From a virus (taxonomy: Duplodnaviria > Caudoviricetes): DNA of 35,795 nucleotides. The first letter of the stretch is position 1. The number at the start of each line of letters is the position of its first letter. The notes below the pieces were generated by a model, which saw nothing but the letters and a program-made list of their open reading frames with translations, searched no databases and was not told the DNA's origin. This document shows positions 11,879 to 33,170 of the stretch, one piece after another. The stretch spans positions 1-35,795 of IMG/VR virus record IMGVR_UViG_3300023266_000005; one strand, 5' to 3'. A program made the position numbers and the translations under genes.

Positions 11879-14800
11879 TTAGTCCTTCTTGCGTCTCTCA
11901 ATCGGGATGTTGTCGTTGCTGCCCGCTGTGGCTGGGCAGTCGACGCCAGGGGTCCGTACCGTTTGCACCGCTGAGAGCGGGCCGTCAAGGCCGTTAGAGC
12001 CGCCCACCTGGTAGCCATAAAAGGTGTCGGTAAGCGGGGTCACGTCGCTCCACTGCCCAAGTGTGGTCGTACCCAGAAGCGAGCCATCACGGTAGACCTT
12101 GTAAAGCAGCGTATCGGGCATGAGGGTCCAGGTCATGCCCACACGCAGCGGACACTGACCCGCTTGGGCGCTCACCCCGGTCACTTGTGGCGGCGGGTTG
12201 CCGCTTGGACACGGCGGCCCTATAAGAAAACTCACCTCGCCGCTCTTATCCCCCTGCTGCGTGCCGTCATCCGTCGATATACGCCAGTAGAGCGTCGTAC
12301 TCGCTGGCGCCCCCTGTACCGCGTAGCCCGAGTTTGTGGGCTGCGCCACATCAGCGTAGGGACCGTTCTTAATATTGCCCTGCCAGACGTGATACTTCGA
12401 GGCGCCAGGGACGTCGTCCCAGTCGAGAACCACTTGCGCCGGGCAGGTTCCCGCTTCCACTGAGATAAAGCCCGGCGGATCAGGAGGCGGCGGCGTGCAC
12501 GAGGTCGCAGATGTCGTGACGGTGACGACATCGCTATACGGCCCATACTGCCCGTTATAAGCGGCAATCTGATAGCGGTAAGGTAGAGCAAGGCCTAGAC
12601 CGCCCTCGGTGTAGGTCGTCTGCGTCGTGGTGCCAATGAGCGCCATGGCGCCGCCGCGCCCGTCATCTCTCTCCAGCTTGTAGGCCCCGGCGCCGCTGAC
12701 CGCGTCCCAGGAGAGCGACACCTGATCGGGGCACGTCGCCTGTGTACCGGTCACGTTCTCAGGCTCCCCAGGGGGCAGCGGTGGGCACGGATCGGCTAGC
12801 GTCTTAATGGAGATGTCAGTACTTCCCAGGCCTTCGATGCCGTTGTCAGCGGTCACTTTGTAGTCATAGAGCTGATCCGGCACGACCTCGGCGTCAACGT
12901 AGCTGGCTGACGCAGGCGAGGCGACCACGGTGTACGGACCGCCTAGGGTTTCCGAGCGATAAACGCGATAGAAGCTGGCGTCTGAAACCGGGCTCCAACC
13001 CACCAGGACGCGCAGCGGACAGGTCACCTGCCCAATCGCCATGCCCTGCGGCTGTGCCGGTGGCGCCAGAGGGCAGGCTTCGGGGCCGGTGGCAATAGAA
13101 GCCTCTGCCGACTTGGCGCCTTCTTTGTCGGTGAATGCACTCACTTGGTACCAGTAAGGCGTCGCCACGGATACGGCGGTGTCGATAAAAGGTGTACCGG
13201 CCGTGATGGTTTGCAGGCTGTAAGAGCCGCCCGGCACCTGCGAGCGGTAGACGTAATAGCTCGTGGCGCCCGCGACCGTATTCCAACTGACCGCATTCCT
13301 GAGCGGACAGGTGCCTGTGGTGAGCGTAACACCACTGGGCGCTGGAGGCGGCGGTGTCGGGCAGGTCTCAGAAGCCATGGTGATGCTTCTGGGATTGGTC
13401 GGCGCGCTCTCCAGAGAGTTGAAAGCGGTTATCTGATAGCTGTAGGGCTGCGACACGGCTACCGAGGTATCGACGTAAGTGGTCGTGGGCACCTCGGTCA
13501 GCAGGGCAAAGGGACCGGTACTCGCGGGCGCCCTGTAGATGCGGTAAGCCGTGGCCGAAGCGACGCTGTTCCAGTTAAGGACGGCGCGCAAGGGGCAAGT
13601 CTGCGCCGTGGCACTAAACCCCATGGGAATGGTCGGCGTACCAATACACGGCGCTGGGGTACTTGCCGTCTGCACGCCGGTTTGCCCGCCTTCTTTGCCG
13701 TTGTAGGCACTCACCTTGTAGCTGTACGGGGTAGAGGCATCGAGGCCTGTTTCCGTATAGGTCGACACCGAGGGACTCGCCACCAGGGTAAAAGGGCCTG
13801 TGGGAGAGGGCGAGCGGTAGAGCAGGTAACTGGTGGCTGTGGGCGTATCGGCCCAGTCGAGCACGATCTGGTTCGGACAGGTGCCGGTGGTGGCGGTGAA
13901 ACCTGTCGGCACCGGCGGCGGATCGCCTGGACAGATAGGCGTGGGCGACGTGGCGCCTACTGGCGTGCTGAAAGGGCCTTCAAAGCCATTGTAAGCCGCC
14001 ACCTTGTAGGTGTAGGGGACCGCGCCTGCAACGCTGAGATCGTTGTAAAAAGCCGTAGCGACGTCGGCAATCTGCGTGTAAGCCCCGCCGCTTGAGCGCT
14101 GTACGCGGTAGCTCGAGGCGCCTGAAACGGGCGTCCAGGCCAGGTTGATCTGAGACGGACATGATAGTGGCGTGGCTGTGAGGCCGGTAACGGTCGCCGG
14201 TGCCTTTTGGCCCACGGCTACCGCGGCGCAGCTTTGGTCGCCCTCAATGCCGGTATCTGCCGTCACCACGTAGCTGTAGAGCTGAGCGTTGACAATGGCT
14301 GTGTCGGTATAGGTCGTACCTGTGGGGTCGGCAATGAGGGTGTAAGGACCACTGACACTGTTTGCCCGGTAGAGATGATAGGTGGCGCTGGGGACCGCGT
14401 CCCAGGAGACGGCAATGCTCCCCAGGCTGGAAACCGCGGTCGTCCTAGCTGGCGGCGGCGGCGCCACGGCCGGGGGTGTACACGTCGCCGATGAGGTAAT
14501 GGTGCTCCCGGCGCTGGCAGCGCTCGTAAAGCGGCCGTCAATGGTCTGCACGTTGTAGGTATAGACGATGGCCGGGTCCAAGTAGGGATCGTCGGCAGAC
14601 GTGGTGCCGAATTCGCCGACTTCTAAGTACTCGCCGGCGGCTGTGGTTTTGGAGAGGAAATAGCTGTCTGCCCCGGCCGCCGGGTTCCACGTACAGCTTG
14701 CCGAACAGTCGGGATGCGCCGTGCAGGCGAGCCCTGTAGGGACCGCAGGCGCCACCAGGGTGGTGGCCGACTTTTGGGTAGAAGGCGCTGAAACGAGCCC

Positions 14801-17800
14801 GTTATCGGCGGTCACCTGGCAGTAATAGGTTTTGGAGTCGAGCAGACCGCTAATTTCCGCTTGGGTGTCCTCCGTGTCCACGGTCGTGGGGAAGGGACCG
14901 GCAGCGGCCGTGCCACACGTGACGTGATAGAGGTCGCCGTCAGGGACCGCATCCCACGAGGCAAACAAGCTCCCCAGTCCTTCACCAGGCACGAGTGTAA
15001 AGCCTGTAGGCGCTACCGGCGCTTGCGGCCCGGGATTGCCTTCCACTTGCAGGACCACCCACTTGGCCGACTGTGCCGGGTTGGTGGCAAAGGTGAGGTT
15101 GAGGCCCGTGCTCGTGAGCGTTGGCGTGGCATCGTAGAGGACGGCAGCGCCGCTGTTATTCATCAGGCGCCAGTTGGTAGAAGCCCGACTCTTGGCCGGG
15201 ACCGCTGTGGCTGTGCCATTACCCAGGCCGTCTTGCATGTTCCAAGAAGCGCTAAAGACCCCGCCGTTACCCGCTATGGCCAGGCCCGCTTGCGAGCTGT
15301 TGACCTGCTCTACCGCGTCATCGGTAGCCGAGGCGCTGAGAAAGCCGAGAGCCAGGCCTGGGGCAAAGCCCGCTGCCGTGGTCACGACACAGTTGCAGTT
15401 GGCCGGGGTCGCTGGGGTGGACACCATGCTGAGCTTGGTCTTCAGGCCGCCCAAGGAGACGGCCGCGTAGCCCATTTGCGACGTGGCTGTATACACGGTG
15501 TTGTTGACCCTGAACCCCGTGGCGCTGTAGTTGGAAACCGTCAAGCGGCTCCGCAGTTGGCCAAACTCGGTCCCCTGTAGGGCTTGCGATGAAATGTCGG
15601 TCCAGGACTCGGAGAACTGTCCCGCTGTGCCGGTCACTTGCCCCGTGTCACCGTTCCAGCTCATACCCATGTTGGCAACTGGGGTGCGCGTGTGCATACC
15701 GAGTTTGACGATGAATTCCGCCGTCCCTGTGCCGCTAAAATCCTGGTAGCGTCCTGAGCCCAGAAAGACCACGTCCGGTTGGATACCGGCCGCCACGTCG
15801 ACAGAGGCGCCCACCGCGGGGACGCTGAAGGTTCCGGCTTTGAAGTTGGCGTCAGCCCCGCCAAAGAGAACCGCTATCCCCTGAAGACCGCTTGAGCCCC
15901 CGGCCCAGGTAATCCGCACGCCGCCAGGGATAAGCGTGCAGGTTCCCCGCAGCACGGCCGCCTTGCTGGAATCAATCTGCCCGCTACATTCTGCCGTGCG
16001 CTGGTTATTCGTGCTCGCAGTCGTGGTGAGACCGTCTGTGGCATAGCCCCCTACCCACCACTGTGACGTTGCATCTGAAGCCCCAAAGCTCATGCGCGCA
16101 TGGGCTGAGCCACCGATGATGGTCGAGCCGCTCAAATAGATCAGCACGCCTTTGGGGGTAATACCGGTAAAGACAGAGGATGTGATGTCTTGCGACGTGC
16201 CCGACGTCACCGACACAAACGGGACCACCGCCGTTTTGATATCGGCCGATTTAGGCGCCTCATAGGCCCCCATATCCCACTTGCCACTCGTGGGAATAGG
16301 GCGCTTCGTACCCGTGATGTCGTCAGGTACGAGGCTTAGATCTGTCCCTGTGTCCTTGGCGGGGGAGCCCGCTTGCAAGTGGAAGTCATCTGCGCTCGCG
16401 TCCACGAACAAGGGATTGGTCGATGAGGGCAGGTTGGTTTCCTGAATCGTCCCCGTGCCGTTGATCGTAATGTCAGAGGCCGTGTTGTTGCAGATGTTGT
16501 TGGTCAGGCGCGAAGTCGCCATGTGGCTGCCGATGCTGATACAGGAACCAGCAGCAGCGGCCGGAGGCGCAGGGCCGACGATGGTGTTATGGGCGATGAG
16601 CGCGTTTGCCCCGCCTTTGGTGTTGCTAGCATCGCCTAGGAGAATGCCACCGGTGGGATTGTGGGCCATCACGTTATTGGTGATGCTCGCGGTGTCGCCC
16701 ACATCGGGGAGATAAACGGCCCAGCCGCCGTTACTGGTAATTTTGTTCTTGGCAATGGTCGTCAGGCTATAGCTGTAGGTCGTAGCCGCGGGGTCGTCAA
16801 GGGCAATGCCGTGGCCCTTGTTGCTGGCGATAGTGTTGTTGGTGGCGTTGTTCTTGCCGCTCATCATGAGGATACCGTGATGAGCCGTCGTCGTGCCATT
16901 GTTGTGGATGTTGCTGTTCAAGATTTCGTTGTAAGGCGATCCGGCTGAGATCTCGATGCCGTGGGATTTCGAGTTGTAGACCTCGACGCCGTCAAAGCGG
17001 TTGTTCCACTCGGAGGTGTTCAGGAAGATCGCAGAGCCTGTGGTGTTAACCGCGTCGACCTTGATGCCTTTGATGAGGGTGAACTTGGTACCCCCCGTGA
17101 GGGTAATGGCATGCGTACCTGAAGCAGGCTGCAAGAGAACGGTGGCGCCGGTATCGGCCTTGATGGTGTAGGCGGCGTCGTCGATGCTGGTTCCCGCTTT
17201 AGCCGTGAGCGTGATGGTTTCAGTGTAGGTACCGGACTTCACCGTACAGCTTGAATTGGGCGCTGTCAGGGCATTCACGATGCACTTGCCGATGGTCTTC
17301 CAAGCATTCGCTGGGGTCGTACCTGGCCCATTATCATCCGGTCTCGATGCATCGACCCATTGATCTTTAGCTGGAGGCGGGGGGATTTCGCCCCCTGAAC
17401 CGCCGTATTCATAGGCGCCGTAATCGTACGTTCCATTGACTGGACGCGTATTCTTGTCGTAGTCGTCTTTGATGCCGTTTATCTGTGTCAGCTCATCAAT
17501 GGCACTGCTAGCCGTGCTCTTGAGGTGGTAGTCACCGCCCAAGCTTGACGAAGGCGAAACGAACAGGCTTGAAGTTCCCGTCAGGTTGCCACTTACTTGA
17601 CGGGAATAATACGCATCACCCTTGTCTGTATCTTGAATGTTACCCTTTACGCTCTTGGTGACCTCGAATCTAGCAGTATCCGTGCAATATGAAATGCCTA
17701 CTTTTTTGACTAAGAATCCCTGACTATTGTTATAACACGTATTATTATACGCAAACCCTTTGGCATTACACACGCCTAGACAGCGCATCTTATTATTGAC

Positions 17801-18850
17801 GACCACGTTGTTGTAGGCTTCCCAATCATCACCCACTTGTATAGCATCGCTTGTATCAGTGCTTGAGTTCGAACGGCGTTCATTCCCGTCAATCCAGTTC
17901 CGCCGAATAATCCCTTTGCGTGTGGCAGAAGGGAACATATCCATATGGGAACGGGCTGTCGTTATAGGTCCAAAATCATCGCCAATGCCACGACTGCCCT
18001 TATGGATGTAGTTATCTTCAATAATCATCGTGCCCCAGGTGTCTTGCTTGATATCGATGGCTTCTTTGTTGAAGCCGCTAAATTCGTTGCGGGCGATGGT
18101 GAAATCGTGGGCGCCCACACAAGTGCCGCAATGATCCGGGCACCCCGTTCCACTATCCGAGGATATATAAACACCCTCACCGTTCATCTTTTCATAGTCG
18201 GTGTCATTGCCAGAATGCCCTGAATCCAGAATGTAGTTGTCTGTAATCTCAAAGTTGCTGACAACTCGACCTTTAAGCTCGCCGTCTTTACACGACTGAG
18301 CTTGAACGCCTGCCTTCTTGAAATTGACCATCTTGTTCCAGCGTATCTTCCAGTTCGAAGAACCATCATACGGGCGAAAGACAGAGAACCACTCGGGCTG
18401 AAGGTGCTCGATAATGAACCAGTTTTTGAATCCCCAGTTGGGATCATTCTCCCCCGCGTCCTTGGGAAATACCAGCCTTGGCATGGGATCGCTAGCCGTG
18501 CCGTAAACGCCAAAGATCGTTGGCGCAGAAGAAGTACCGCTTGGCATATCACCAAAGAAGGGTTCGTAAGTATTCTTCTTGAGATTAAAGACAGAGCCCC
18601 GCTTGAATAGCGCACACATGCCACCTTGATAGCGGTTAACCGTGTTGGTCTTGCTAAGCGTCCTACAGGCCTTCGCTGGGCTGGAACAGTCGCTGTCATC
18701 ACCGTCGGTGGAAGAATAATAGAGCTTCTTCGTACACGTCGAGAGGTCCGTGTTGAGGTGGTTGTCCGCCCAAGGATTTGAGGGGTTGAGGGCAAATCCC
18801 TGGCACACGCTTAAGAGTAAGAGAGAGACAGCCAGTCCAACACGGACCAT
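11879..18850 (-). CDS. Giant exported mosaic protein: signal peptide, two right-handed beta-helix domains each ending in a choice-of-anchor-Q-like motif, a 3-repeat beta domain, and 11 fibronectin type III domains
   Basis: 2323 aa. N-terminus MVRVGLAVSLLLLSVCQGFA. Motifs DYHLKSTASSAID...YDYGAYE and DFHLQAGSPAKDTG...WDMGAYE; Asn-ladder repeats; 11 units of P..P.G......W..V..A..Y...R...Y.Y.V.A. Confidence 0.85.
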   Translation of the reverse strand: MVRVGLAVSLLLLSVCQGFALNPSNPWADNHLNTDLSTCTKKLYYSSTDGDDSDCSSPAKACRTLSKTNTVNRYQGGMCALFKRGSVFNLKKNTYEPFFGDMPSGTSSAPTIFGVYGTASDPMPRLVFPKDAGENDPNWGFKNWFIIEHLQPEWFSVFRPYDGSSNWKIRWNKMVNFKKAGVQAQSCKDGELKGRVVSNFEITDNYILDSGHSGNDTDYEKMNGEGVYISSDSGTGCPDHCGTCVGAHDFTIARNEFSGFNKEAIDIKQDTWGTMIIEDNYIHKGSRGIGDDFGPITTARSHMDMFPSATRKGIIRRNWIDGNERRSNSSTDTSDAIQVGDDWEAYNNVVVNNKMRCLGVCNAKGFAYNNTCYNNSQGFLVKKVGISYCTDTARFEVTKSVKGNIQDTDKGDAYYSRQVSGNLTGTSSLFVSPSSSLGGDYHLKSTASSAIDELTQINGIKDDYDKNTRPVNGTYDYGAYEYGGSGGEIPPPPAKDQWVDASRPDDNGPGTTPANAWKTIGKCIVNALTAPNSSCTVKSGTYTETITLTAKAGTSIDDAAYTIKADTGATVLLQPASGTHAITLTGGTKFTLIKGIKVDAVNTTGSAIFLNTSEWNNRFDGVEVYNSKSHGIEISAGSPYNEILNSNIHNNGTTTAHHGILMMSGKNNATNNTIASNKGHGIALDDPAATTYSYSLTTIAKNKITSNGGWAVYLPDVGDTASITNNVMAHNPTGGILLGDASNTKGGANALIAHNTIVGPAPPAAAAGSCISIGSHMATSRLTNNICNNTASDITINGTGTIQETNLPSSTNPLFVDASADDFHLQAGSPAKDTGTDLSLVPDDITGTKRPIPTSGKWDMGAYEAPKSADIKTAVVPFVSVTSGTSQDITSSVFTGITPKGVLIYLSGSTIIGGSAHARMSFGASDATSQWWVGGYATDGLTTTASTNNQRTAECSGQIDSSKAAVLRGTCTLIPGGVRITWAGGSSGLQGIAVLFGGADANFKAGTFSVPAVGASVDVAAGIQPDVVFLGSGRYQDFSGTGTAEFIVKLGMHTRTPVANMGMSWNGDTGQVTGTAGQFSESWTDISSQALQGTEFGQLRSRLTVSNYSATGFRVNNTVYTATSQMGYAAVSLGGLKTKLSMVSTPATPANCNCVVTTAAGFAPGLALGFLSASATDDAVEQVNSSQAGLAIAGNGGVFSASWNMQDGLGNGTATAVPAKSRASTNWRLMNNSGAAVLYDATPTLTSTGLNLTFATNPAQSAKWVVLQVEGNPGPQAPVAPTGFTLVPGEGLGSLFASWDAVPDGDLYHVTCGTAAAGPFPTTVDTEDTQAEISGLLDSKTYYCQVTADNGLVSAPSTQKSATTLVAPAVPTGLACTAHPDCSASCTWNPAAGADSYFLSKTTAAGEYLEVGEFGTTSADDPYLDPAIVYTYNVQTIDGRFTSAASAGSTITSSATCTPPAVAPPPPARTTAVSSLGSIAVSWDAVPSATYHLYRANSVSGPYTLIADPTGTTYTDTAIVNAQLYSYVVTADTGIEGDQSCAAVAVGQKAPATVTGLTATPLSCPSQINLAWTPVSGASSYRVQRSSGGAYTQIADVATAFYNDLSVAGAVPYTYKVAAYNGFEGPFSTPVGATSPTPICPGDPPPVPTGFTATTGTCPNQIVLDWADTPTATSYLLYRSPSPTGPFTLVASPSVSTYTETGLDASTPYSYKVSAYNGKEGGQTGVQTASTPAPCIGTPTIPMGFSATAQTCPLRAVLNWNSVASATAYRIYRAPASTGPFALLTEVPTTTYVDTSVAVSQPYSYQITAFNSLESAPTNPRSITMASETCPTPPPPAPSGVTLTTGTCPLRNAVSWNTVAGATSYYVYRSQVPGGSYSLQTITAGTPFIDTAVSVATPYWYQVSAFTDKEGAKSAEASIATGPEACPLAPPAQPQGMAIGQVTCPLRVLVGWSPVSDASFYRVYRSETLGGPYTVVASPASASYVDAEVVPDQLYDYKVTADNGIEGLGSTDISIKTLADPCPPLPPGEPENVTGTQATCPDQVSLSWDAVSGAGAYKLERDDGRGGAMALIGTTTQTTYTEGGLGLALPYRYQIAAYNGQYGPYSDVVTVTTSATSCTPPPPDPPGFISVEAGTCPAQVVLDWDDVPGASKYHVWQGNIKNGPYADVAQPTNSGYAVQGAPASTTLYWRISTDDGTQQGDKSGEVSFLIGPPCPSGNPPPQVTGVSAQAGQCPLRVGMTWTLMPDTLLYKVYRDGSLLGTTTLGQWSDVTPLTDTFYGYQVGGSNGLDGPLSAVQTVRTPGVDCPATAGSNDNIPIERRKKD

Positions 18851-18860
18851 GGGGGGACTC

Positions 18861-19397
18861 CTAATTAATCACGTAGACGACGCTGCACATACTGCGGTCG
18901 TCGATGTTGTCTGACTTCTGCGTCACTTCCATCGCCGTCGCCGTGCCCCCTTGCAGCTTATAGAAGCCGTTGAGGGTGGCCTCACAGGTTTGCTTGCCCT
19001 GGCTCATCTGGCAGACGCCAGAAGGCACGTCCGTGCCGGCACTGCGAAGCTGGTAGGTGATGGTTTCACCTTGGCCAAGCTCCGCGGTGGTGCGACAGAA
19101 GATGAAGGCCGGGCGCAGCGTCGTGCTTTCAAGAAGCACCTTCTGCGCCGCTTGCTCTTCGACGTAAGCCATGGTGTCACAGGCCGTGTTGGTGATATCG
19201 ACAGGCGGCGCGTCTAGCGGAAAAGGCGACATGAAGGTCATGCCGCTTTCGGCGTTTTGCCCGCAGTAACGCGCCACCACGGCGCCAATCGGGGCAAGAC
19301 CGCCGTTAAAGACCGTGTAATTGGTCTTGGTTTCGAGGGCAGCACCGGCAATGGAAGCCCAAAAGAGCCAGGCTAGGGCGAGGTAGCGGATATCCAT
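18861..19397 (-). CDS. Signal-peptide protein with 6 Cys, predicted beta-sandwich; function unknown
   Basis: 178 aa; MDIRYLALAWLFWASIAGA|A has an A-x-A cleavage site. Spacing to neighbours is 8 and 10 nt. Confidence 0.75.
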   Translation of the reverse strand: MDIRYLALAWLFWASIAGAALETKTNYTVFNGGLAPIGAVVARYCGQNAESGMTFMSPFPLDAPPVDITNTACDTMAYVEEQAAQKVLLESTTLRPAFIFCRTTAELGQGETITYQLRSAGTDVPSGVCQMSQGKQTCEATLNGFYKLQGGTATAMEVTQKSDNIDDRSMCSVVYVIN

Positions 19398-19405
19398 AGT
19401 ACCCC

Positions 19406-19894
19406 CTAGCGCAAGGCCGCGTAGAAAAGGAAAAGATCGATGCTGCCACCCGTCGGGATGTTGGCCGTATCCACCATGTACTCGATCTGCACGCCGTCCA
19501 CACTTCTGAAGTGGTTGGCGGCGGGGACCAGGCCGCCGGCCGCCACACCCACGATGTCACCTAGGAGATCGGCGGCTGTGGCGGCGGTGCCCAGAGCGAC
19601 GTTGTCGAGCCAGAAGTTAAAGGAGGACACTTCCTCGCCCGTGTCGGGGTCGACGTAGCGGTAGCCCAGATGCCCTTGAGCGCCGGAAGCGTACTGCGAG
19701 GCGCCAAAGATACTCAGTTGAGGCTGGACCCAGATATTGGAATAGGGGATTTTCCCCAGGATAATCGTGTGCTGCCCGGCTGCCTGATCGCTCACGTAAG
19801 AGCCGTCAAACATCTTGAGAGAGTTGTCGACCCTATGGGGATTGCCTGAACTCTTTTGCTGCGCCATAAAGTCAGGCGCATAGATAATGGCCAT
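19406..19894 (-). CDS. Capsid cement/decoration protein candidate
   Basis: 162 aa, beta-rich, immediately after the major capsid gene, with a strong AAGGAG ribosome-binding site. Confidence 0.6.
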   Translation of the reverse strand: MAIIYAPDFMAQQKSSGNPHRVDNSLKMFDGSYVSDQAAGQHTIILGKIPYSNIWVQPQLSIFGASQYASGAQGHLGYRYVDPDTGEEVSSFNFWLDNVALGTAATAADLLGDIVGVAAGGLVPAANHFRSVDGVQIEYMVDTANIPTGGSIDLFLFYAALR

Positions 19895-19905: not shown

Positions 19906-20817
19906 TTATGCCGCGCGCAAGGTTTTAATTTGGATGACGCCTTCGTCTTGAATGCGCGTAAAGCCGCCGCTCATGTGCGTATAGAGCTGTACCAGGTTCT
20001 TCTTGTCAGGGCGAAGCGATATCTCCGTCGTAATAGGCTCCTGGCGTTTAAAGCCCACCGCGTCCTCGTTCCACATGATCGCCGTGTCCACAGTATCCGA
20101 GTGGACCGCCGAGAGATTCATGAGGAGGGACGACCAAATGAAGTTGATGCCGTAGAAGTTTCCCAGGTAGCCGTTCCCCACGGGACGCCCGGTATTAAAG
20201 TCAAAGCTCGTGAAGTTGGTATCGCGCATGAGCTGGGCTCGCTGTCTAGGCACCACGACGCACCAGATGCGGCCGTTGTGCGCCTCATCTTCTTCGAGCA
20301 TCTGCACGGCATCGATGAGCTTATCCACCATGAAAGGTAGCCCGTTATCCGGCAGGATGTTTTCAGGGGGAAACTCGGTTGTGTCAAACGAGGGCAGCGT
20401 CGTGGCCGGGTTGATCGTCTGCGTTACCGCATCGCCAATGAGGGCGTTCAGAACAGTGCGGTCTTTGGCGCGGCCGAGCGACATGGAGAGGTTGCGGGCG
20501 TAGCGGGCGGGAAGTTTGCCCGTGGTCGCCATCGAGTTATCCCACTCGTGGGGATCGATCCAAGCCGTATCATCCCACACGACCGGAATGGCCACGCGCA
20601 CAATGTTTTGCAGTTCGGGTGGCTCTGGCGTGTCGCCAAACATCACGGTGGACTGTTTGGCTTCGCTTTTACCCAGAATGTTAAACGTGGCGCTCTGGCC
20701 AATGAGGGCTTCTTCCCTGTAGGTGCCCTCTAGCTTGGCGCCGTTTTGCTGAAACTCATGTGTGATGTCTTCATCAAAGTCCGTGGTGCGGAAGTTGACA
20801 ATGTTATAATTCGGCAT
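19906..20817 (-). CDS. Major capsid protein (HK97 fold, podovirus type)
   Basis: 303 aa. Motifs FQQNGAKL, SLGRAKDRTVLNAL, GYLGNFYGINFIWS and C-terminal GFTRIQDEGVIQI; follows the scaffold gene. Confidence 0.9.
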   Translation of the reverse strand: MPNYNIVNFRTTDFDEDITHEFQQNGAKLEGTYREEALIGQSATFNILGKSEAKQSTVMFGDTPEPPELQNIVRVAIPVVWDDTAWIDPHEWDNSMATTGKLPARYARNLSMSLGRAKDRTVLNALIGDAVTQTINPATTLPSFDTTEFPPENILPDNGLPFMVDKLIDAVQMLEEDEAHNGRIWCVVVPRQRAQLMRDTNFTSFDFNTGRPVGNGYLGNFYGINFIWSSLLMNLSAVHSDTVDTAIMWNEDAVGFKRQEPITTEISLRPDKKNLVQLYTHMSGGFTRIQDEGVIQIKTLRAA

Positions 20818-21797: not shown

Positions 21798-21799
21798 AG

Positions 21800-22111: not shown

Positions 22112-22124
22112 GGTTGGACTCCTT

Positions 22125-24079: not shown

Positions 24080-24080
24080 A

Positions 24081-25815: not shown

Positions 25816-25818
25816 GGC

Positions 25819-26368: not shown

Positions 26369-26369
26369 G

Positions 26370-28247
26370 TTAGTAGTTCCTCGCCACCGATTTGTTGTTG
26401 CCCCCGCCGCCGTCAAAGACACCTGCTGTGGTATTGCCCTTCACTAAGTTCCCCTCGATGAAGTAGCGATCTGAGGCCCCGTTTGCCACTTCGATGCCGT
26501 ACTTTTGCACGCCGTAAGAGGGAAAGTTCACAGAGGAGCCGCAGGCATTGCCGGTAATCATGAAGTCTGTAGCCCCAGCGTCCACGTGGATGCCGCTACA
26601 AATACCTGGCGCGCCCACGGAATTGGAGAGGACGGTTATACCCTGGAAGCGGTTAAATTCGCTAAAGGCCCCGCCGTTCATCGAGATGCCGTGACGGCCG
26701 TTGTTGTACACGATGCCGCCGTTAATGGCAATGGCACCCGAATCGACGATACGGTAGCCGTCATTGGCAGAAGAGGCACACCAGACATTATCAAAGCGCA
26801 TGAAAGCGCAGCGCTCCAAGTAGACATTGTTGATGCAGGAGTCAAACTGCATGTGGTCAAAGGTGTTGTACTCGACTCTATCAGCAAAGCCGTAGTTGAC
26901 GCTCCTGGCGTCCATGCCGTACTGGCAGTAGATGAGGTCGCCACCAATGACTTGCAGGCCTTCGACGTGATCTCTCAGGAGCCAGGCCGTGCCGGGTCCG
27001 TGCGTCGAATCACCGGGCTCTGGCGCCCCCACGATGACCACGTCTTTGAAGTAGCCGCCCGCATTGCCGAGTGAGCCTAGGAGCGCTACACCAGCATATT
27101 CCATGTAGCCAATGGTGATGTTGTGAAAGTGATTGTTGGGTGCCCCGCGGTTGTCGGGCGGCTCCATGTGAATGCCGGTATAGGGCGCAAAGATTTGGAC
27201 ATTGTCCATGATGCCACCCGCCGCCGTGGTGAGCTTGAGCGCCGCGCCAGCCATAGGCGTACCCGTACTGCGGTCGTGGCCAAAGCCGATATCGCGGATG
27301 GACCAAGGCACGTGGTTGTTTTGCACCGTGAAGCAGTCGTAGTTACCCCGGTAGATCAGACTCGTGGCGTTATTCCCCGCGCCGTAGACATCGCAACCGG
27401 TGGTGAACATAACGTTAGAGAGCAGGAGATAGGTACCAGCAGGGACGTCGAAGCGGCCATTCGTTGCGTCCCTACAGGCCTTGAAAGCAGGCGCATCGTC
27501 GGTGACCCCGTTGCCCGTCGCCCCCCACTGGGAATCCGTCACCTGTGGGCGCCGCCGCAGGCGCACTTGGATAGAGGCGATCGCCGAGGCGTTGCTATTG
27601 GACTGGTTCGTCGTGGCCGTAATGGCCGAGAGATGGGCGCTCAGGGTCGCATCTTGCGCCGCGTTCTTCGTACGCATGGCGTCAAGCTCGGACTCGACGT
27701 TCGTGCCACTGTCGTAAACCACATCCTGAGCATTGACGGTAAGAGTCGGCGGCAAGTCGGCCACGGGAACCGGTGCCCAGGCGAGACCGTCGCCCGAGCC
27801 GTTGACGCGCAAAACAGCGCCCGGGACCATATCCGGAAGCTGCACGTTAAGATGGGTCGGCGGAGAAAACGGGCTAAATGTCGGCACGCGCCAGGCCCTA
27901 TCGAGCAGTTGGCGCGTGAGAAGCACCTGGCGGTCAAGCGCATCTTCGTGCTGATCGGCCTGGAAGACGCTGCCGGTGAGGTAATCGGTCGGCTGCGTGT
28001 AGGGCAAATCGAGCTGGAGCAGGACGCTTTCACCCCCTGCCATAGGGCTGAGAAAGGTCACCGTCGCCCCCGTTTGAGAGCCCGCCCCTGCCACCGTGTA
28101 ATCTGTCCCCAAGGCCTTGCGCAGCGTGTCAACAAAGACCGCCAGGTCGCCAGGCGTAGGGACTTTCAAGGGGAAGCCAAAATCCGTTTGTCCCGCTTGG
28201 GCAATATACCCCCGCGAGGCGATGATGGTCGTCCCCTCGACCGTCAC
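26370..28247 (-). CDS. Tailspike/tail fibre: T7-gp17-like head-attachment domain, coiled coil, and pectin-lyase-fold beta-helix (depolymerase candidate)
   Basis: N-terminal GQTDFGFP...DL.V...GTDYTV.G...HEDALDRQVLLTRQL; WGATGNGVTDDAPAF entry motif followed by beta-helix repeats; no signal peptide. Confidence 0.88.
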   Translation of the reverse strand: MTVEGTTIIASRGYIAQAGQTDFGFPLKVPTPGDLAVFVDTLRKALGTDYTVAGAGSQTGATVTFLSPMAGGESVLLQLDLPYTQPTDYLTGSVFQADQHEDALDRQVLLTRQLLDRAWRVPTFSPFSPPTHLNVQLPDMVPGAVLRVNGSGDGLAWAPVPVADLPPTLTVNAQDVVYDSGTNVESELDAMRTKNAAQDATLSAHLSAITATTNQSNSNASAIASIQVRLRRRPQVTDSQWGATGNGVTDDAPAFKACRDATNGRFDVPAGTYLLLSNVMFTTGCDVYGAGNNATSLIYRGNYDCFTVQNNHVPWSIRDIGFGHDRSTGTPMAGAALKLTTAAGGIMDNVQIFAPYTGIHMEPPDNRGAPNNHFHNITIGYMEYAGVALLGSLGNAGGYFKDVVIVGAPEPGDSTHGPGTAWLLRDHVEGLQVIGGDLIYCQYGMDARSVNYGFADRVEYNTFDHMQFDSCINNVYLERCAFMRFDNVWCASSANDGYRIVDSGAIAINGGIVYNNGRHGISMNGGAFSEFNRFQGITVLSNSVGAPGICSGIHVDAGATDFMITGNACGSSVNFPSYGVQKYGIEVANGASDRYFIEGNLVKGNTTAGVFDGGGGNNKSVARNY

Positions 28248-28714
28248 CTGCGGACCGCCCGGCGCACCGTGTAGACCGGCTCTGGCGCCTCTTCGGGTTT
28301 GTCCTCGTCGTCCTCGGAAGGATCCTCAGGCTCGGGCTCCGGAGGCCGAGAGGGCGGAATGTTCGTGGGCTCGGGGCCAGGGTCCGCCACCGGGGGTTCA
28401 CCTTCAGGGGATTCGCCTTGCGGCACGTATTCAGGGGTAGTTGCTGGCGCCTCCTCCGCGTCCTCTTCTTCGTCTGGACGCTCTCTAAGCGGCTCAAACG
28501 GACCGGGCGGCGTGGGCATCTCGGCCACCAGGGGATAGCCCGAGGCCTCCAGCTGCGTGGCGATGCGGATGGCCAGCTTGATGGCGTCGTCGATTTGCGG
28601 CTGGGCGATAATCGGGAAACGCGACCCCGTGCGCGTTGCCACACCGCTAATATAGGCCTGAAGCAGCTGCACAATGAGATCAGGCATAATCGCTTTCAAG
28701 AGATTACCTTTCAT
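28244..28714 (-). CDS. Hypothetical protein with a helical N-terminus and a Pro/Glu-rich disordered tail
   Basis: Fills the gap between the 1488-aa gene and the tailspike, with a GTGA overlap at the tailspike start. Start is uncertain (28714 or 28687). Confidence 0.65.
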   Translation of the reverse strand: MKGNLLKAIMPDLIVQLLQAYISGVATRTGSRFPIIAQPQIDDAIKLAIRIATQLEASGYPLVAEMPTPPGPFEPLRERPDEEEDAEEAPATTPEYVPQGESPEGEPPVADPGPEPTNIPPSRPPEPEPEDPSEDDEDKPEEAPEPVYTVRRAVRR

Positions 28715-31700
28715 AAGCGCCCATGTCGGGTTTTGCACCGAGGAATATCATATGCACCCCTTCGCCGCTTGTCCAGGAGATAGATTTATTTAAATTCAGA
28801 GTGTTCCCTGAAATGCTGGTTACGCGGGCGGTTTTCTTACCCGTCGCGGTCATGATGAGATCACCCTTGTAACTGGGGACCGTGCGCCCGTCTGAGAAAG
28901 GAACCGTGGTCACGACCGGCATGGCCGAGCCACTACCGGTTGACGTCGCCGTGGTGAGGAAGGTTCCGGCGTCGATACCGGCAGAGCCATTTGCCAGGTG
29001 AAAATCGTAAATAGGCGCCTCGACAAAGGCCGGCGCCGTCTGAATATTGCCCTTCCACCGACTGGGATACGTCGATTGCAAGCTCGAAAGAGACTGTGAG
29101 GTCACGCAGTCTCCAGCCCCTAGAGGCCCACCCGTAGCCCCTCCAGAACCCACCCCTGCAACCAAGATATTGTTGAATATATAATTATCGTCAAGGCCTA
29201 CAGAGCCCACCAAGCAAAACTTGGTGCGAGACGACTGGACGATATTATTGATGAATCGGTTATCTTCGATCGGTGTTTGCCCCGCCTTGTAGTAAGCTTC
29301 CTGCTTGTAATTTTGATAAAAGACGTTGTTATAGACCCAACTATTATCCAACCCATTGCCCCAGACATCCTTACCATTTTCAGCAAAGGTATTGAAACGG
29401 ACAATATTTTTCGTCGGATCCGCCTCAATAACAGCACCTGTCGTATCATTTTGCCCTTGCCCACCCAGCTGCGTACCACTGCCGTATCTGCCCCCCTTAT
29501 TACCCCCAGGCCATGGCGTACTGGCATAATCCCGATTGGCCAGATTGACGCTATTTTGCTCGAAAATCTCGAACTGTGCCGGATAAGGGCTATAATTGCC
29601 GTGCCAGAAATTGCGCAACAGATTTCGTCTAAACACGTTGTCATGCGAAGCCGTCATATTGACATTAGCGCTATTGATGGCGTAATGCTTGAACTTGGCA
29701 ATCGTATTGCCATCGAATAGGTTGTGGTGAGAGCCTGTAATCATCTTGATACCTTCAAAGAGGCCCGCGCAAACTTTGGCATTATTGTCGCTACATTTCG
29801 CCGTGCCGCCGTTCGTCGATTCCACCAGAACACGGAGCACCTGGTTGTAGCTCGCATTATCCATGCGAATGGCATTGCCGTCGCGCCACCCCGCCCCAAT
29901 TTCTTTGACATAGCCTCCTGCAATGATACTGCGAGACGCACCCACCATGTTGACGATGTTGGTGGTCCGCGTCGCCGCCGTGCTTGTCGCATCCGACTGT
30001 AAACCCAGGCCCATAAGGAAGATATAGCTCTTGTTATCGAGGTTGGCGGCGCGGCCGCTGCCCGGCTGTACCACCACAGCATCGCCTGGCCAATTGGCAT
30101 ACGAAATATAGTTGTTAGCGCTACCGCTTCTTTGAGGCACGATTTCATCCGTGTACGTCCCCGCGTGAATAAACACCGATTGCCCGGCTGTGAGCGTAGT
30201 GTTGGCCTTGGCAATCGTCTTCCAGGCGCCGCCAGCACTGTTGCTCTTGCCGTCATTCGAATCGTTTCCGTCTGTCCGAATGTGATACACCTGCCCGCTC
30301 ATGACCGGGACCGTGACGCTATCGGCAAAGGCGACGCCGGTAGAGCCTTGGCACGTGAGCGTATACGTAACGGTAGCCGAAGGCGACAGGGTAGCGGGAC
30401 CATCGAGGGCTTTAGCGCCGCTCCAGCCGCCCGAAGCCGTACAGGTACTGGCATAATCCGCATGCCAGTTCAGGCTCACGCTCTGCCCAGGGATCAGGAC
30501 CGGCGGATAGGCTTCGAGCGTCACCACCGCGTCAATGCCCGCAGGCGTGGCCCCTGAGAGCGTCGTCGCCCCGGCCCTGGGCGAGGGCGAGGCCGACACA
30601 TTGCCCGCCGCGTCCTTGGCCCAAACGCGGTAGCAATACGCCGCGTTCGGATCAAGCCCCGTATCCGTATAGCTCAAGCCTGGCACTTCGGCCCTAAAGG
30701 CCCAAGGGCTACACGTATCCGGCGTACACACGCTGGCCTTGCAGTTTTGTACCCGGTATGACGTAACCCCCACATTGTCCGACGCCGCGCCCCAGCTCGC
30801 CGTAATGCTACTGGAAGATACCGCCGTGGCCGAAAGAGACGGAGGTGAAGACGGCACGGTCGTATCGGCCACGGCCCCACCATTTTGCACCGCGCCGTTT
30901 TGCGCCACGGTGGTGACGCTCAGGCCCGCGCCGTTAATCGCCCGAGCCTGAAAACTATGGCTGCCATCCGCCACCAAGCGCGTATCGTAGCCGTAGGTAT
31001 ACGGCGCCTGATACGATACCCCGACGTCTTGGCCATCGACCATAAAGACGACGCTCTCAATGCCTGACTCGGGGTCCGTAGCCGCCGCTGTGAGCGTGAT
31101 TTCTCCCGCCAGTCCCCCCGCCCCTGCCGGGATGGTGTCACCGGCCAGCTCATTTAAGTAGTTTTCCAAGTTGGTGTAGCCGTTAGAGGCATAGGCTGAG
31201 CCCACCAGGGACGTGCCATCAGCAGCCCCGTGTGAGACCTCCCAGCTATTGGGGATGCCGTCATTGTCTGTATCGGGTGGCGCTGTACCGGCCGCGTAAG
31301 TCGGCCACTGCAAACACTCGGCAATGGTCGGACCCCCCGACCCTCCACACCTGCCCCCGGTGTTGTTAATGACGTGGTTTACCGCCTTGGTGTCAATCGC
31401 ATCTCTGGCAGGCCAGCGCGCCCCTACCTTGGCAATGACATCCGCTTTGGCCTGCACGGCACTCGTCTGACTCGGCAGAGCCGGGTACCAAGAGGGCACA
31501 GTCGTACTCTGAATCGCATACGGGCCGCCCAGCGTATCGAGCATGGCCGTCTCCGAACCCACAGAGGCGTCTGGACGCCTGGTCGTATGCACGTTGCCCT
31601 TCATGTAAATATTCGAAGCGTCTACCTTCGCCTGCACACACGAGGGAAACCCCGCGTAGCCACACCCCACCGTGAGCACATTGCTGGTGGCAAAACTCAT

Positions 31701-33170
31701 GTAATTGTTGACAATCGCAGCCTGCACCGCATAGTAATTCGCCAGCATGTAAATACATTCCGCATTGCAGTCTTGCACCACGTTATTCGTCACCTGTGCC
31801 GTGCCACTGCCAAAATGCGGCGTGCGCTTGAAATTGTTGGCAAATAAATTATGCAAATACGATACATGCATCGTCGCCGCCGCGCCGTTACCCCCGCCAC
31901 CAATCCACGAGCCCCCGCCCGAGCCCGCAACATCCTTGAAATTCTCGCTAAACACACTCCACTGCCACGTCACATCCAACTGAATCCCATTCGTCTCGCT
32001 CGACGTTCCCACAATGTCATCGCGAACCCACCCCACGCTCATATGGTCAAAGATCAAGCTGTTGTTCTCGTTATCCTGCCCTACCGACATCCCCCCATGA
32101 CCCGGATTCGTCGTTGCCACGGTATTCGTCAGCCGCACCCGGCAACCCCGCCAAATCATATTGCCCCCCGGACGCGGTCTTAAACTCCAGTCCCCCGAAA
32201 TCATAATCCCACCGCCAGGCGCCGTCTGACACGCCACCGTCAAATCGTCCGGCATACCGTCAATATCCGAACCTAAAATAATCCGCCCCCCCGTCGTAAA
32301 CACCACCGTGCGCGCCCCACTCTGCGTCAGGCAGTACCTGAGCGTGCCGGCCGACCCATCATCCGAAAGCTTGTTCACCTTGCACACGCTGCCGCCGCGA
32401 CCCCCACTGGCAAAGCGCCCAAAGCCCTCCGCTGTTGGAAACGCCAGCTGCGGACTCCCCGCTCTCGCCCCCCCCACCGGCGGCAGCGTCAGCGTTACCC
32501 CTGTGGGGACGCTCCGGTCCACCTTCCACTCTCCCGCCGTAAGCGCCGTACAGTTGCCCACCCGGTCACACAGATCCACCCCCGCATCCACCGAGCCCCC
32601 CTGCGCCACTGAGGCCGTATCATACGTCCCCTCATACGGCTCCCCCACAGGCGTCCCTTGCTTTACCCCGGCTACCACCAACTGCGCCGTATACAACCCG
32701 CTCCCACCATCACTCGCCTCACTTACCCCCCAACCCACCGGCCCCGACGTCCAAAAGTCCCCCTCCGGTAGCACCTCCCCCGATGGACCCTCTACATCCA
32801 CCTGTACCCCCACCTCACTACTGGCAAAACAGTCCGACTCACTACTGCTCACACAACAGTTCAAGCTCGCGATAAACGGCCCATTTGCCGTAAAGCCCGA
32901 CGGGTATATACCCCCATACGGACTCGCCGCGGAACTTTGCACCGGCACACCCCCCACTAACAAACTCGCATGGTTGATTACCCGCCCAGAGGCACACTCA
33001 CCCTGCCAGATGACTGAGCCGCTGCTCCACTTCTCCCCGCCTATCTCCAGCCCCGACAGCGACAACACCGCACTATCCGGCGTCTCCTCGCACACCGCAA
33101 AGCTCCCCGTTAGACCCCATGACAGCGACGGCAAAAGCAGGGTTATCAGCAACGCCAGACCGGCTTTCAT
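28704..33170 (-). CDS. Large exported mosaic protein: signal peptide, Ig-like region, PL1-type pectate-lyase domain, Ca-binding DxDxDG motif, Ig, FN3, PKD/Ig-like, second beta-helix, choice-of-anchor-Q-like end
   Basis: 1488 aa. MKAGLALLITLLLPSLSWG; AFPTAEGFGRFASGGRGG.V.KV..L.D.G..GTLR...RTVVF..GG.I...ACQTAPGGGI; DTDNDGIPNSWE...GYTNLENYLN; YHIRTDGNDSNDG...AWKTIAKA...HAGTY; DFHLANGSAGIDAG...PDMGAYE. Confidence 0.88.
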   Translation of the reverse strand: MKAGLALLITLLLPSLSWGLTGSFAVCEETPDSAVLSLSGLEIGGEKWSSGSVIWQGECASGRVINHASLLVGGVPVQSSAASPYGGIYPSGFTANGPFIASLNCCVSSSESDCFASSEVGVQVDVEGPSGEVLPEGDFWTSGPVGWGVSEASDGGSGLYTAQLVVAGVKQGTPVGEPYEGTYDTASVAQGGSVDAGVDLCDRVGNCTALTAGEWKVDRSVPTGVTLTLPPVGGARAGSPQLAFPTAEGFGRFASGGRGGSVCKVNKLSDDGSAGTLRYCLTQSGARTVVFTTGGRIILGSDIDGMPDDLTVACQTAPGGGIMISGDWSLRPRPGGNMIWRGCRVRLTNTVATTNPGHGGMSVGQDNENNSLIFDHMSVGWVRDDIVGTSSETNGIQLDVTWQWSVFSENFKDVAGSGGGSWIGGGGNGAAATMHVSYLHNLFANNFKRTPHFGSGTAQVTNNVVQDCNAECIYMLANYYAVQAAIVNNYMSFATSNVLTVGCGYAGFPSCVQAKVDASNIYMKGNVHTTRRPDASVGSETAMLDTLGGPYAIQSTTVPSWYPALPSQTSAVQAKADVIAKVGARWPARDAIDTKAVNHVINNTGGRCGGSGGPTIAECLQWPTYAAGTAPPDTDNDGIPNSWEVSHGAADGTSLVGSAYASNGYTNLENYLNELAGDTIPAGAGGLAGEITLTAAATDPESGIESVVFMVDGQDVGVSYQAPYTYGYDTRLVADGSHSFQARAINGAGLSVTTVAQNGAVQNGGAVADTTVPSSPPSLSATAVSSSSITASWGAASDNVGVTSYRVQNCKASVCTPDTCSPWAFRAEVPGLSYTDTGLDPNAAYCYRVWAKDAAGNVSASPSPRAGATTLSGATPAGIDAVVTLEAYPPVLIPGQSVSLNWHADYASTCTASGGWSGAKALDGPATLSPSATVTYTLTCQGSTGVAFADSVTVPVMSGQVYHIRTDGNDSNDGKSNSAGGAWKTIAKANTTLTAGQSVFIHAGTYTDEIVPQRSGSANNYISYANWPGDAVVVQPGSGRAANLDNKSYIFLMGLGLQSDATSTAATRTTNIVNMVGASRSIIAGGYVKEIGAGWRDGNAIRMDNASYNQVLRVLVESTNGGTAKCSDNNAKVCAGLFEGIKMITGSHHNLFDGNTIAKFKHYAINSANVNMTASHDNVFRRNLLRNFWHGNYSPYPAQFEIFEQNSVNLANRDYASTPWPGGNKGGRYGSGTQLGGQGQNDTTGAVIEADPTKNIVRFNTFAENGKDVWGNGLDNSWVYNNVFYQNYKQEAYYKAGQTPIEDNRFINNIVQSSRTKFCLVGSVGLDDNYIFNNILVAGVGSGGATGGPLGAGDCVTSQSLSSLQSTYPSRWKGNIQTAPAFVEAPIYDFHLANGSAGIDAGTFLTTATSTGSGSAMPVVTTVPFSDGRTVPSYKGDLIMTATGKKTARVTSISGNTLNLNKSISWTSGEGVHMIFLGAKPDMGAYER

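What the first reader, a model, noticed from the sequence alone, without database searches (positions are those of the whole stretch)
11879..33170. Podophage morphogenesis operon with three built-in Sec-exported, cysteine-rich proteins: a candidate extracytoplasmic virion-decoration or late-secreted glycan-attack system
Seen: the 178-aa (18861-19397), 2323-aa (11879-18850) and 1488-aa (28704-33170) ORFs each start with a classical signal peptide and are Cys-rich. They sit among head genes with 3-10 nt gaps or an ATGA overlap, so there is no room for their own promoter or terminator. Established: tailed-phage virions assemble in the reducing cytoplasm, their structural proteins normally lack signal peptides, and lysogenic-conversion morons normally have their own transcription signals. 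Inference: these proteins are made late with the capsid and exported and oxidised in the envelope. They may then dock on particles at or after lysis (the cement-like 162-aa, 178-aa and 118-aa beta proteins are candidate adaptors), or act as soluble enzymes that clear capsule or biofilm for progeny. Neither giant has a C-terminal TM or LPxTG anchor. I do not know of a characterised example of this arrangement.
Basis: partly seen in the sequence, partly recalled or inferred. Interest (0 to 1): 0.9.

Follow-up and report, generated by a model that had tools for sequence, protein, structure and literature searches.

The report
Exported sugar-cutting fibres of soil podophage
A soil phage encodes, among its particle genes, three proteins that begin with bacterial export signals, two of them giant predicted polysaccharide-cutting proteins, so they likely fold outside the cytoplasm, and the largest likely joins the virus head only after the cell bursts, a route not yet shown for tailed phages.

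Summary
The pairing is what counts: 8 of 11 FN3 repeats of the 2323-aa protein carry a fixed cysteine pair. Only these three of 24 ORFs pass a signal-peptide screen. Independent assemblies exclude a chimera. A phage with a 55%-identical capsid protein keeps the order capsid-cement-180 aa-giant, with rewritten leaders and 29 of 36 cysteines. An unrelated 76-kb phage carries the same modules, also with leaders. The giant's first beta-helix keeps the five catalytic and cation residues of alginate lyase PsAly; the 1488-aa protein has a PL1 lyase domain. A groundwater podophage fills the same cement-to-tubular-A slot with leaderless fibre and PL1 genes beside a homologue of the 118-aa gene. Best reading: a late, exported glycan-attack set whose stalked giant likely docks on heads after lysis (0.45); free enzymes 0.28; lysogen surface proteins 0.17. 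Docking, export, host and lifestyle are untested. The scan noted exported fibre-type genes in seven other phage genomes; none matches this sequence.

The parts
19906..20817 (-). Major capsid protein, HTVC010P-like, 303 aa
   Evidence: PF19821 E 5e-41; 23-29% to pelagiphage and groundwater podophage capsids
19406..19894 (-). 162-aa cement-like protein, no leader, no Cys
   Evidence: Directly after the capsid gene here, in L008 (43%) and L013 (56%); weak match to the same-position gene of MW202742 (E 3e-4); 'cement' is by position, as in Pam1
18861..19397 (-). 178-aa exported small beta protein; predicted leader 1-19; six Cys
   Evidence: Passes screen; all six Cys kept in the 33%-identical L008 protein; pN/pS 0.04-0.08; Atlas model nearest to viral clusters (TM 0.62) and BclA/C1q-type domains (TM 0.49, under the naming bar)
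18791..18850 (-). Predicted Sec leader of the 2323-aa protein (residues 1-20)
   Evidence: leaders also on the L008 and G001 homologues
17381..18790 (-). 2323-aa protein, beta-helix 1: predicted PsAly-type polyuronate lyase site (E225, Y228, E263, D266, K268)
   Evidence: Invariant in 3 of 3 homologues; same motifs as PsAly E181/Y184/E216/D219/K221; GC3 0.57 against 0.72 in the rest of the gene
16247..17380 (-). 2323-aa protein, beta-helix 2 with choice-of-anchor Q end
   Evidence: PF13229 E 5e-23; NF041518 E 7e-12
15023..16246 (-). 2323-aa protein, about 400-aa beta-rich region of no known family, three similar units by eye
   Evidence: No Pfam or PHROG family; kept in L008 and G001
11918..15022 (-). 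2323-aa protein, stalk of 11 FN3 repeats; repeats 4-11 each with one Cys at the A-B turn and one after strand G
   Evidence: PF00041; Cys spacing 18/78 repeated; same pattern in L008 repeats 4-7
11879..11917 (-). C-terminal tail ending IERRKKD, candidate docking tag; its last codons also form the next gene's ribosome-binding site
11519..11875 (-). 118-aa leaderless beta protein, candidate vertex (head-spike base) protein
   Evidence: Atlas features 0.95-0.96 to viral clusters, 0.94 to a cluster 54% PF27453 XepA; 32% homologue in the same slot of MW202742
10893..11519 (-). Tail tubular protein A (likely start at 11519, overlapping the 118-aa stop)
   Evidence: phrog_394 E 8e-35; junction sequence
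33114..33170 (-). Predicted Sec leader of the 1488-aa protein (cleavage after residue 19 by eye or 25 by the screen)
31125..32468 (-). 1488-aa protein, PL1-type lyase domain with TSP3-like Ca motif
   Evidence: 9BUJ pectate lyase E 9e-16, VexL E 3e-4; phrog_27797; 52% to the leader-bearing 681-aa gene of G001
30291..31124 (-). 1488-aa protein, Big_7, FN3 and Ig-like linker domains
   Evidence: PF17957, PF00041
28704..30290 (-). 1488-aa protein, C-terminal beta-helix; no tail tag
   Evidence: 36-39% to the 1062-aa gene of G001; GC3 0.60
26370..28247 (-). 625-aa ordinary leaderless tail fibre/spike with beta-helix
   Evidence: PHROG tail-fibre N-terminus, PF12708; fails the leader screen

Best explanation
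This short-tailed soil phage encodes three proteins with export-type leaders inside its tightly packed particle genes; they are likely made late, likely exported and disulfide-bonded in the host envelope, and the 2323-aa protein likely docks on the head after lysis as a long stalked fibre whose tip is predicted to bind and cut acidic polysaccharide. Steps. (1) Shown: genes, leaders, fixed cysteine pairs, lyase motifs, conservation in other phages. (2) Inferred: co-transcription with the capsid genes, Sec export with leader removal, oxidation in the periplasm, where the A-B-turn and post-G cysteines staple each FN3 repeat into a rod of roughly 35-40 nm (FN3 geometry and size recalled). (3) Inferred, untested: at lysis the envelope contents meet finished heads, and the stalk's C-terminal end binds a leaderless head protein (118-aa vertex-type protein or 162-aa cement), perhaps through the co-exported 178-aa protein, which occurs with the stalk in both phages that have it and is missing from the phage whose homologue lacks it. 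(4) Inferred: the tip domains let particles grip and cut capsule or biofilm polyuronate. The 1488-aa protein has no stalk or tag and more likely acts as a free enzyme released at lysis.
For: Leaders: 3 of 24 ORFs pass, null 35 of 6024; L008 (capsid 55%, 180-aa 33%, giant 38-40%) keeps both leaders with different sequence (the screen passes the giant's leader and misses the 180-aa one). Cysteines: 29 of 36 identical against 773 of 1913 overall; 8 of 11 repeats paired; 6 of 6 in the 178-aa pair. Selection: pN/pS 0.04-0.08 for the 178-aa gene and 0.15 for the first 551-650 codons of the giant. Slot: HTVC010P has capsid-165 aa-74 aa-tubular A; MW202742 fills it with a 118-aa homologue, a leaderless PL1 protein related to the 1488-aa lyase domain (E 3e-21), and small fibre-type genes. 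Tail: R[RK]{2-4}[DE] ends 3 of 701 called genes, the giant and two genes of that MW202742 slot. Base: Atlas likeness to viral and XepA clusters; RcGTA uses a jelly-roll pentamer to hold a capsule-binding head fibre (PMC7296036 passages). Enzymes. Same modules with leaders sit upstream of the terminase among fibre-type genes in the unrelated phage G001.
Against: No direct evidence of binding, export or virion presence. A leader moves the protein away from where heads are built, so assembly would have to occur at or after lysis, for which my searches listed no characterised tailed-phage case. The last two or three codons of the basic tail double as the next gene's ribosome-binding site in all three cases, and 7 of 388 coupled genes end in [RK][DE], so the tag may be partly a by-product. 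The G001 homologues lack stalk, tail and 178-aa partner and the 1488-aa protein ends like a free secreted protein. The end of the L008 giant and what follows it are off the contig, so tag and 118-aa gene are unconfirmed there. No recognised capsid-binding domain lies in either giant. The pentamer reading of the 118-aa protein rests on one Atlas feature match; no solved structure matched by sequence.
Confidence: 0.45

Rival explanations
1. All three are late, exported but free proteins: lyases and a small partner stocked in the envelope and released at lysis to loosen capsule or biofilm for progeny escape and spread.
For: Architectures are those of free secreted bacterial enzymes (beta-helix, choice-of-anchor Q, Big_7, FN3); no membrane or wall anchor; G001 carries four leader-bearing relatives without stalk or tag; PMC13452462 offers this as hypothesis ii (passages).
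Against: A free enzyme has little use for an 11-repeat stapled stalk; the genes occupy the head-decoration slot next to a vertex-type gene, and a relative has leaderless fibre genes with a similar tail there.
Confidence: 0.28
2. Lysogenic-conversion or host-benefit genes: secreted surface or scavenging proteins expressed from a prophage, by promoters inside upstream genes as for lambda lom (recalled), that remodel the host's coat or digest plant polyuronates.
For: The phage is held by many bulk soil and rhizosphere DNA runs (17 of 24 listed hold half the words or more); modules move between unrelated phages; PL1 and PsAly-type domains suit plant or slime polyuronates; scan note e1-9511369 reached this reading for another phage (unchecked).
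Against: No promoter or terminator excess and 3-11 nt gaps; the 178-aa gene and most of the giant have head-gene GC3 (0.72-0.74); the pair is kept in place in a 55%-capsid relative, unlike sporadic morons; no integrase or repressor in the window, though about a quarter of the genome is missing.
Confidence: 0.17
3. The hydrophobic N-termini are not export signals but docking peptides that plug into the 118-aa pentamer in the cytoplasm, as residues 2-10 of the RcGTA head fibre do.
For: [quoted passage not shown]
Against: Leaders have basic n-region, unbroken h-region and an A-x-A-type site in window, L008 and G001 proteins; in the G001 681-aa protein the leader ends exactly where the PL1 domain begins; G001 has no 118-aa homologue; regular cysteine pairs point to an oxidising compartment.
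Confidence: 0.08
4. Assembly chimera of phage DNA with bacterial secreted-protein genes.
For: The domains look bacterial.
Against: Colinear independent contigs and variants, bridged junctions at even depth, same order in a distant phage.
Confidence: 0.02

Closest known systems
RcGTA head spike: Rcc01079 base pentamer plus Rcc01080 fibre (PMC7296036, passages read)
   Same: Small beta protein beside a polysaccharide-directed fibre gene; a head fibre that grips capsule through a short terminal peptide is the working model here.
   Different: The RcGTA fibre docks by an uncleaved N-terminal peptide and is 325 aa; here the candidate is 2323 aa, has a cleavable-type leader, paired cysteines and predicted lyase sites. 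Pentamer and binding are not shown.
NosD-like beta-helix genes of sediment and soil viruses (PMC13452462, passages read)
   Same: Beta-helix, pectate-lyase and lectin domains near terminase and other structural genes; one with a signal peptide; same three hypotheses (attachment, matrix breakdown at lysis, host adhesion).
   Different: No conserved leader-bearing cassette in the capsid-to-tubular-A slot, no stapled FN3 stalk and no small exported partner in the passages read.
PsAly alginate lyase, PDB 6KFN (PMC6796002, passages read)
   Same: E181, Y184, E216, D219, K221 motifs recur as E225, Y228, E263, D266, K268, invariant in three phage proteins.
   Different: His154, Arg156, Asp250 and Lys252 are not kept (as in SjAly per the paper); HMMER aligned 6KFN to helix 2, so the helix-1 mapping is by motif; substrate unknown.
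PL1 lyases 9BUJ (pectate lyase) and VexL 6FI2
   Same: Same fold start and Arg-Thr-Pro motif.
   Different: The Asp before the MSV rung is Gly and the residue after Arg-x-Pro is His; the roles of these positions are recalled, not read.
Podoviridae sp. ctVRi840, MW202742 (annotated record)
   Same: Same head-tail layout, 118-aa homologue, PL1 gene in the cement-to-tubular-A slot, similar basic C-termini.
   Different: Its slot genes have no convincing leader (one weak pass, score 7.0, of 12 screened); it is uncharacterised.
Signal-peptide genes of Porphyromonas gingivalis Nixviridae phages (PMC10367356, passages read)
   Same: Tailed-phage genes with Sec-type leaders.
   Different: Five genes of unknown function read as host-surface modifiers; not lyases, no stalk.
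Chain-like fibres of podophages A1002, GP4, VP1 (PMC13730344, passages read)
   Same: Accessory podophage fibres built from small beta proteins; A1002 gp41 lacks its first about 30 residues in the virion, which the authors put down to possible proteolysis.
   Different: The passages mention no signal peptide or disulfide; I did not see the gp41 sequence. The window has no such bead gene by my searches.

Membership tests
Sec/signal peptidase I substrates | Basic n-region, hydrophobic h-region, small residues at -3 and -1 | tested here: met
   Own heuristic, 3 of 24 ORFs; null 35 of 6024. SignalP not available.
Sec/signal peptidase I substrates | Leader actually cleaved and protein exported | not testable with these tools
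   Needs N-terminal mapping or a reporter fusion.
Disulfide-bonded extracytoplasmic proteins | Conserved cysteines placed as neighbouring pairs | tested here: inconclusive
   Conservation and periodic pairing met; closeness in space rests on recalled FN3 topology because the model failed.
RcGTA-type head spike | Jelly-roll base protein forming a pentamer on capsid vertices | tested here: inconclusive
   Atlas 0.94 to a XepA-bearing cluster; no PDB sequence match; own model pLDDT 38; no complex job ran.
RcGTA-type head spike | Fibre docks by an N-terminal alternating hydrophobic-Gly peptide | tested here: not met
   Only a loose VGLAVSL inside the giant's leader; not kept in L008 or G001.
RcGTA-type head spike | Fibre present on particles | not testable with these tools
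   No isolate or proteome.
PsAly-type beta-helix alginate lyase | Catalytic Tyr and Lys with three cation ligands (Glu, Glu, Asp) | tested here: met
   Tyr-to-Lys spacing 40, 40, 32 against 37.
PsAly-type beta-helix alginate lyase | His154, Arg156, Asp250, Lys252 of the bacterial subgroup | tested here: not met
   Neighbouring rungs differ in all three homologues.
PsAly-type beta-helix alginate lyase | Lyase activity on polymannuronate | not testable with these tools
   Needs assay.
PL1 pectate/pectin lyases | PL1 beta-helix fold with Arg-x-Pro catalytic motif | tested here: met
   9BUJ E 9e-16; KRTP in window and G001.
PL1 pectate/pectin lyases | Full calcium-ligand set | tested here: not met
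   Asp of 9BUJ's EDSMSV rung is Gly in both phage proteins; W-x-x-D-D kept; ligand role recalled.
Lysogenic-conversion morons | Own promoter and terminator flanking the gene | tested here: inconclusive
   None in the 3-11 nt gaps, no excess over shuffles; host promoter type unknown.
Lysogenic-conversion morons | Sporadic presence and atypical base composition | tested here: not met
   Kept in place in L008; GC3 like head genes except two beta-helix domains.
Lysogenic-conversion morons | Temperate phage, expression in the lysogen | not testable with these tools
   No lysogeny genes in the window; the rest of the genome could not be fetched.
HTVC010P-like / T7-like podophage head-tail module | Terminase, portal, scaffold, capsid, tubular A and B, internal proteins in order | tested here: met

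The most novel reading that the evidence does not exclude
A tailed phage finishes its particle outside the cytoplasm: it sends a 2300-residue, disulfide-stapled, lyase-tipped head fibre and a small adaptor through the host's Sec and oxidation machinery, and these snap onto cytoplasm-built heads at lysis; the lyase tips are swapped between unrelated soil phages as host-range modules.
Probability: 0.4. Interest if true: 0.9.

Novelty: new variant of a known kind. Interest (0 to 1): 0.72.

Why it matters
Tailed-phage particles are taken to be built wholly from cytoplasmic, reduced proteins. An exported head fibre would add an assembly step at lysis and let phages use any bacterial secreted, disulfide-dependent enzyme as a receptor-binding part. 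It also bears on soil-virus ecology: leader-bearing lyases in phage genomes are often counted as auxiliary carbon-cycling genes, whereas here position and a leaderless counterpart point to particle or spread functions. The proteins give clean tests without a host: leader fusions, lyase assays with named catalytic mutants, and in vitro binding of the tail to the 118-aa or 162-aa protein.

Tried and rejected
Structure models failed: FN3 array alone pLDDT 30.6, 118-aa protein pLDDT 38; no fold search was run on them. No complex prediction ran because the queue was full, which says nothing on binding. The 178-aa protein has only itself and the L008 cluster as relatives; the 118-aa protein only itself in the word-indexed search; neither matched a solved structure by sequence. 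The 178-aa profile did not match the MW202742 158-aa gene or the G001 322-aa gene (probability under 1%). GenBank phages hold only partial matches to the giants: 7 records for the 1488-aa protein, 4 for the 2323-aa one, none over 30% coverage. Host not found: one weak terminase match in a Myxococcales MAG contig (31%), no names in cluster look-ups. No IMG/VR contig extends beyond the gp16-like gene; the 42.7-kb metagenome contig behind L010 was not held. RNA: 4 of the 6 listed RNA runs were laid; short contigs at depth 2-7 fall in the 2323-aa, 178-aa, capsid, scaffold and tail-fibre genes, with almost nothing listed over the 1488-aa gene; contigs show neither strand, level nor transcript ends, DNA may be present, and no silent control stretch was laid, so no weight is put on this. 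Cysteine percentage was rejected as evidence. The codon index used ten reference genes, one read out of frame by my error; only GC3 values are quoted. The Tunturi paper has no occurrence of 'signal peptide' in its main text; the Cellulophaga lead gave no paper. No supplements were read; supplementary gene tables of PMC13452462 and PMC11924767 may bear on prior description.

Full report
What the window is. The 35.8-kb record is most of a short-tailed phage with all main genes on the - strand: RepA-like helicase, 1488-aa gene, small acidic ORF, 625-aa tail fibre, terminase, portal, scaffold, capsid, 162-aa, 178-aa, 2323-aa, 118-aa, tubular A and B, and internal virion proteins. The capsid is 23-29% identical to HTVC010P-like phages (38 records). 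A 28-kb copy is rated 57% complete, so about a quarter of the genome is missing, with any lysis or lysogeny genes. Holders are soil and rhizosphere runs. The host is unknown.

The observation. Coordinates, gaps (11, 8, 10, 3 nt) and the ATGA overlap are right. The 1488-aa gene is not among head genes. My leader screen passed 3 of 24 ORFs, exactly the three named, against 35 of 6024 internal windows and 10 of 324 control genes; it is a heuristic and it missed two relatives' leaders that look real by eye (L008 180-aa, G001 1062-aa). No transmembrane stretch, lipobox, Tat or LPxTG motif follows. Cysteine content of the giants equals that of the terminase and of leaderless phage beta-helix proteins. 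The pattern is what is unusual: repeats 4-11 of the 11 FN3 repeats each carry one cysteine at the A-B turn and one just after strand G, which by recalled FN3 topology lie at the same pole.

It is real and under selection. Three IMG/VR contigs at 94.8-99.99% identity are colinear, four DNA runs cover the region evenly and bridge the junctions, and strain variants give pN/pS 0.04-0.08 for the 178-aa gene and 0.15 for the giant's first 551-650 codons; the variants of the 1488-aa gene are too close to test.

Relatives. Among 1.84 billion representatives only two capsids exceed 40% identity. One, L008, keeps terminase-portal-scaffold-capsid-160 aa-180 aa-giant. Both leaders persist with different sequence; 6 of 6 and 29 of 36 cysteines are identical against 33% and 40% overall. 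L013 (capsid 69%) ends after the cement gene. A scan with the giant gave 7 loci: three copies or variants of this phage, L008, and three contigs of one unrelated 76-kb phage, G001, with an HK97-type portal. G001 holds a 1288-aa homologue of the giant's first 1270 residues, a 1062-aa homologue of the second half of the 1488-aa protein, a 681-aa protein whose PL1 domain is 52% identical, and an 811-aa beta-helix-FN3 protein, all with leaders and all upstream of the terminase among fibre-type genes. So the modules are shuffled between unrelated phages, which suggests a shared host (inference). Two further phages carry related domains in structural modules without leaders (L066, L070).

What the giants do. 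Helix 1 of the 2323-aa protein has GE-x-x-Y and E-x-I-D-I-K motifs invariant in 3 of 3 homologues. The best solved match to the profile is alginate lyase PsAly, 6KFN (E 1.4e-5, aligned by HMMER to helix 2), whose same two motifs hold Glu181, Tyr184, Glu216, Asp219 and Lys221, the cation ligands and catalytic pair (PMC6796002 passages; numbering offset 34 checked on the printed chain). Four other PsAly site residues are not kept. The 1488-aa protein has a PL1 domain (9BUJ, VexL) with Arg-Thr-Pro kept and one recalled calcium ligand lost, in G001 too. Helix 1 and the last helix of the 1488-aa protein have lower GC3 (0.57, 0.60) than the rest (about 0.72), as expected of recently swapped specificity modules (inference). 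Activity and substrate are predicted only.

On the particle or free? HTVC010P has two small genes between capsid and tubular A. MW202742, the best capsid match in GenBank, has in that slot a 32% homologue of the 118-aa protein, a leaderless PL1 protein related to the 1488-aa lyase domain, and small fibre-type genes. The slot is therefore used for head or neck fibres, and the window fills it with leader-bearing genes. In seven control capsid-to-tubular-A intervals (L007, L071-L075, L077) the screen gave one weak pass and one pass on a stretch I had mis-framed. The 118-aa protein resembles widespread viral proteins and a XepA-bearing cluster; RcGTA holds a capsule-binding head fibre on a jelly-roll pentamer through a short terminal peptide (PMC7296036 passages). 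The giant ends IERRKKD; two genes of the MW202742 slot end ARRRKD and IRRRRD, the only three such ends among 701 called genes. Against this, the last codons are also the next gene's ribosome-binding site in all three, G001's homologues have no stalk, tail or 178-aa partner, and no complex prediction could be run. I put docking of the giant at 0.45, free late enzymes at 0.28, lysogen-expressed host proteins at 0.17, uncleaved docking peptides at 0.08, artefact at 0.02. Export itself, common to the first three, is about 0.9.

What is known. PMC13452462 (passages) reports beta-helix genes near structural genes in sediment and soil viruses, one with a signal peptide, with the same three hypotheses. 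PMC10367356 (passages) reports leader-bearing genes of unknown function in Porphyromonas phages. PMC13730344 (passages) finds a virion fibre protein lacking its first 30 residues. PMC5723332 (passages) only counts signal peptides; PMC11924767 has none in its text. Five searches (listings and abstract starts only, except the papers named) listed no characterised Sec-exported structural protein of a tailed phage. Lambda lom and filamentous-phage pIII as precedents are recalled. The scan's index holds seven unchecked notes of exported fibre-type genes in other phage genomes and none that matches this sequence. They are leads, not support, but they make the pattern look recurrent.

Verdict. A real, conserved cassette; a new variant of phage head-fibre/depolymerase design whose unusual step, assembly after export, is plausible and untested. 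Interest 0.72.

Noticed in passing
L072:19848-20393 (MW202510) and L073:27213-29966 (MW202898): Two other groundwater podophages have leader-like genes in their fibre modules: a 181-aa FN3-labelled gene with a strong screen pass (15.4), and a 917-aa C1q-labelled gene with a leader-like stretch after an internal Met.
   Followed up: no
G001:C1:21912-27193 (L017:4687-9968): Between the exported giants of G001 lie an 812-aa leaderless beta-helix protein with many LTPVxIxL-type repeats, a 145-aa small protein, and a 371-aa frame whose leader-like stretch overlaps the upstream gene; they recall bead-and-rope fibres, but the pairwise test against the MW202742 141-aa gene was not significant.
   Followed up: partly
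G001:C1:57982-58488 (L061:982-1488): G001 encodes a Ros/MucR regulator (PF05443, E 6e-24), a family that controls slime genes in bacteria (recalled); possible host clue and link to polysaccharide targets.
   Followed up: partly
window 132-4889: The gp16-like internal virion protein carries a GH108 lysozyme domain at residues 194-277.
   Followed up: no
window 21800-25815: Strain variants differ strongly in terminase, portal and neighbours (pS 0.2-0.64) but are identical in capsid and tail-fibre genes, a recombined packaging block; residues around 20177-20189 in the capsid gene differ in all other copies.
   Followed up: no
window 28244-28738: Acidic, proline-rich ORF of about 155-164 aa between the 1488-aa gene and the tail fibre, no family, no relative in fetched loci; covered by an RNA-run contig.
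   Followed up: partly
window 33167-33763: The 198-aa ORF is in two frames in variant L005, so the real gene is likely only its last about 100 codons.
   Followed up: partly
L070:9992-14278: A leaderless 1428-aa protein starting with a PL1 domain sits directly before a tail-sheath-like gene in another phage, a second case of this domain in a structural module.
   Followed up: partly
window 20818-20924: The only long gap in the late module (107 nt) lies between scaffold and capsid genes; not folded or tested.
   Followed up: no
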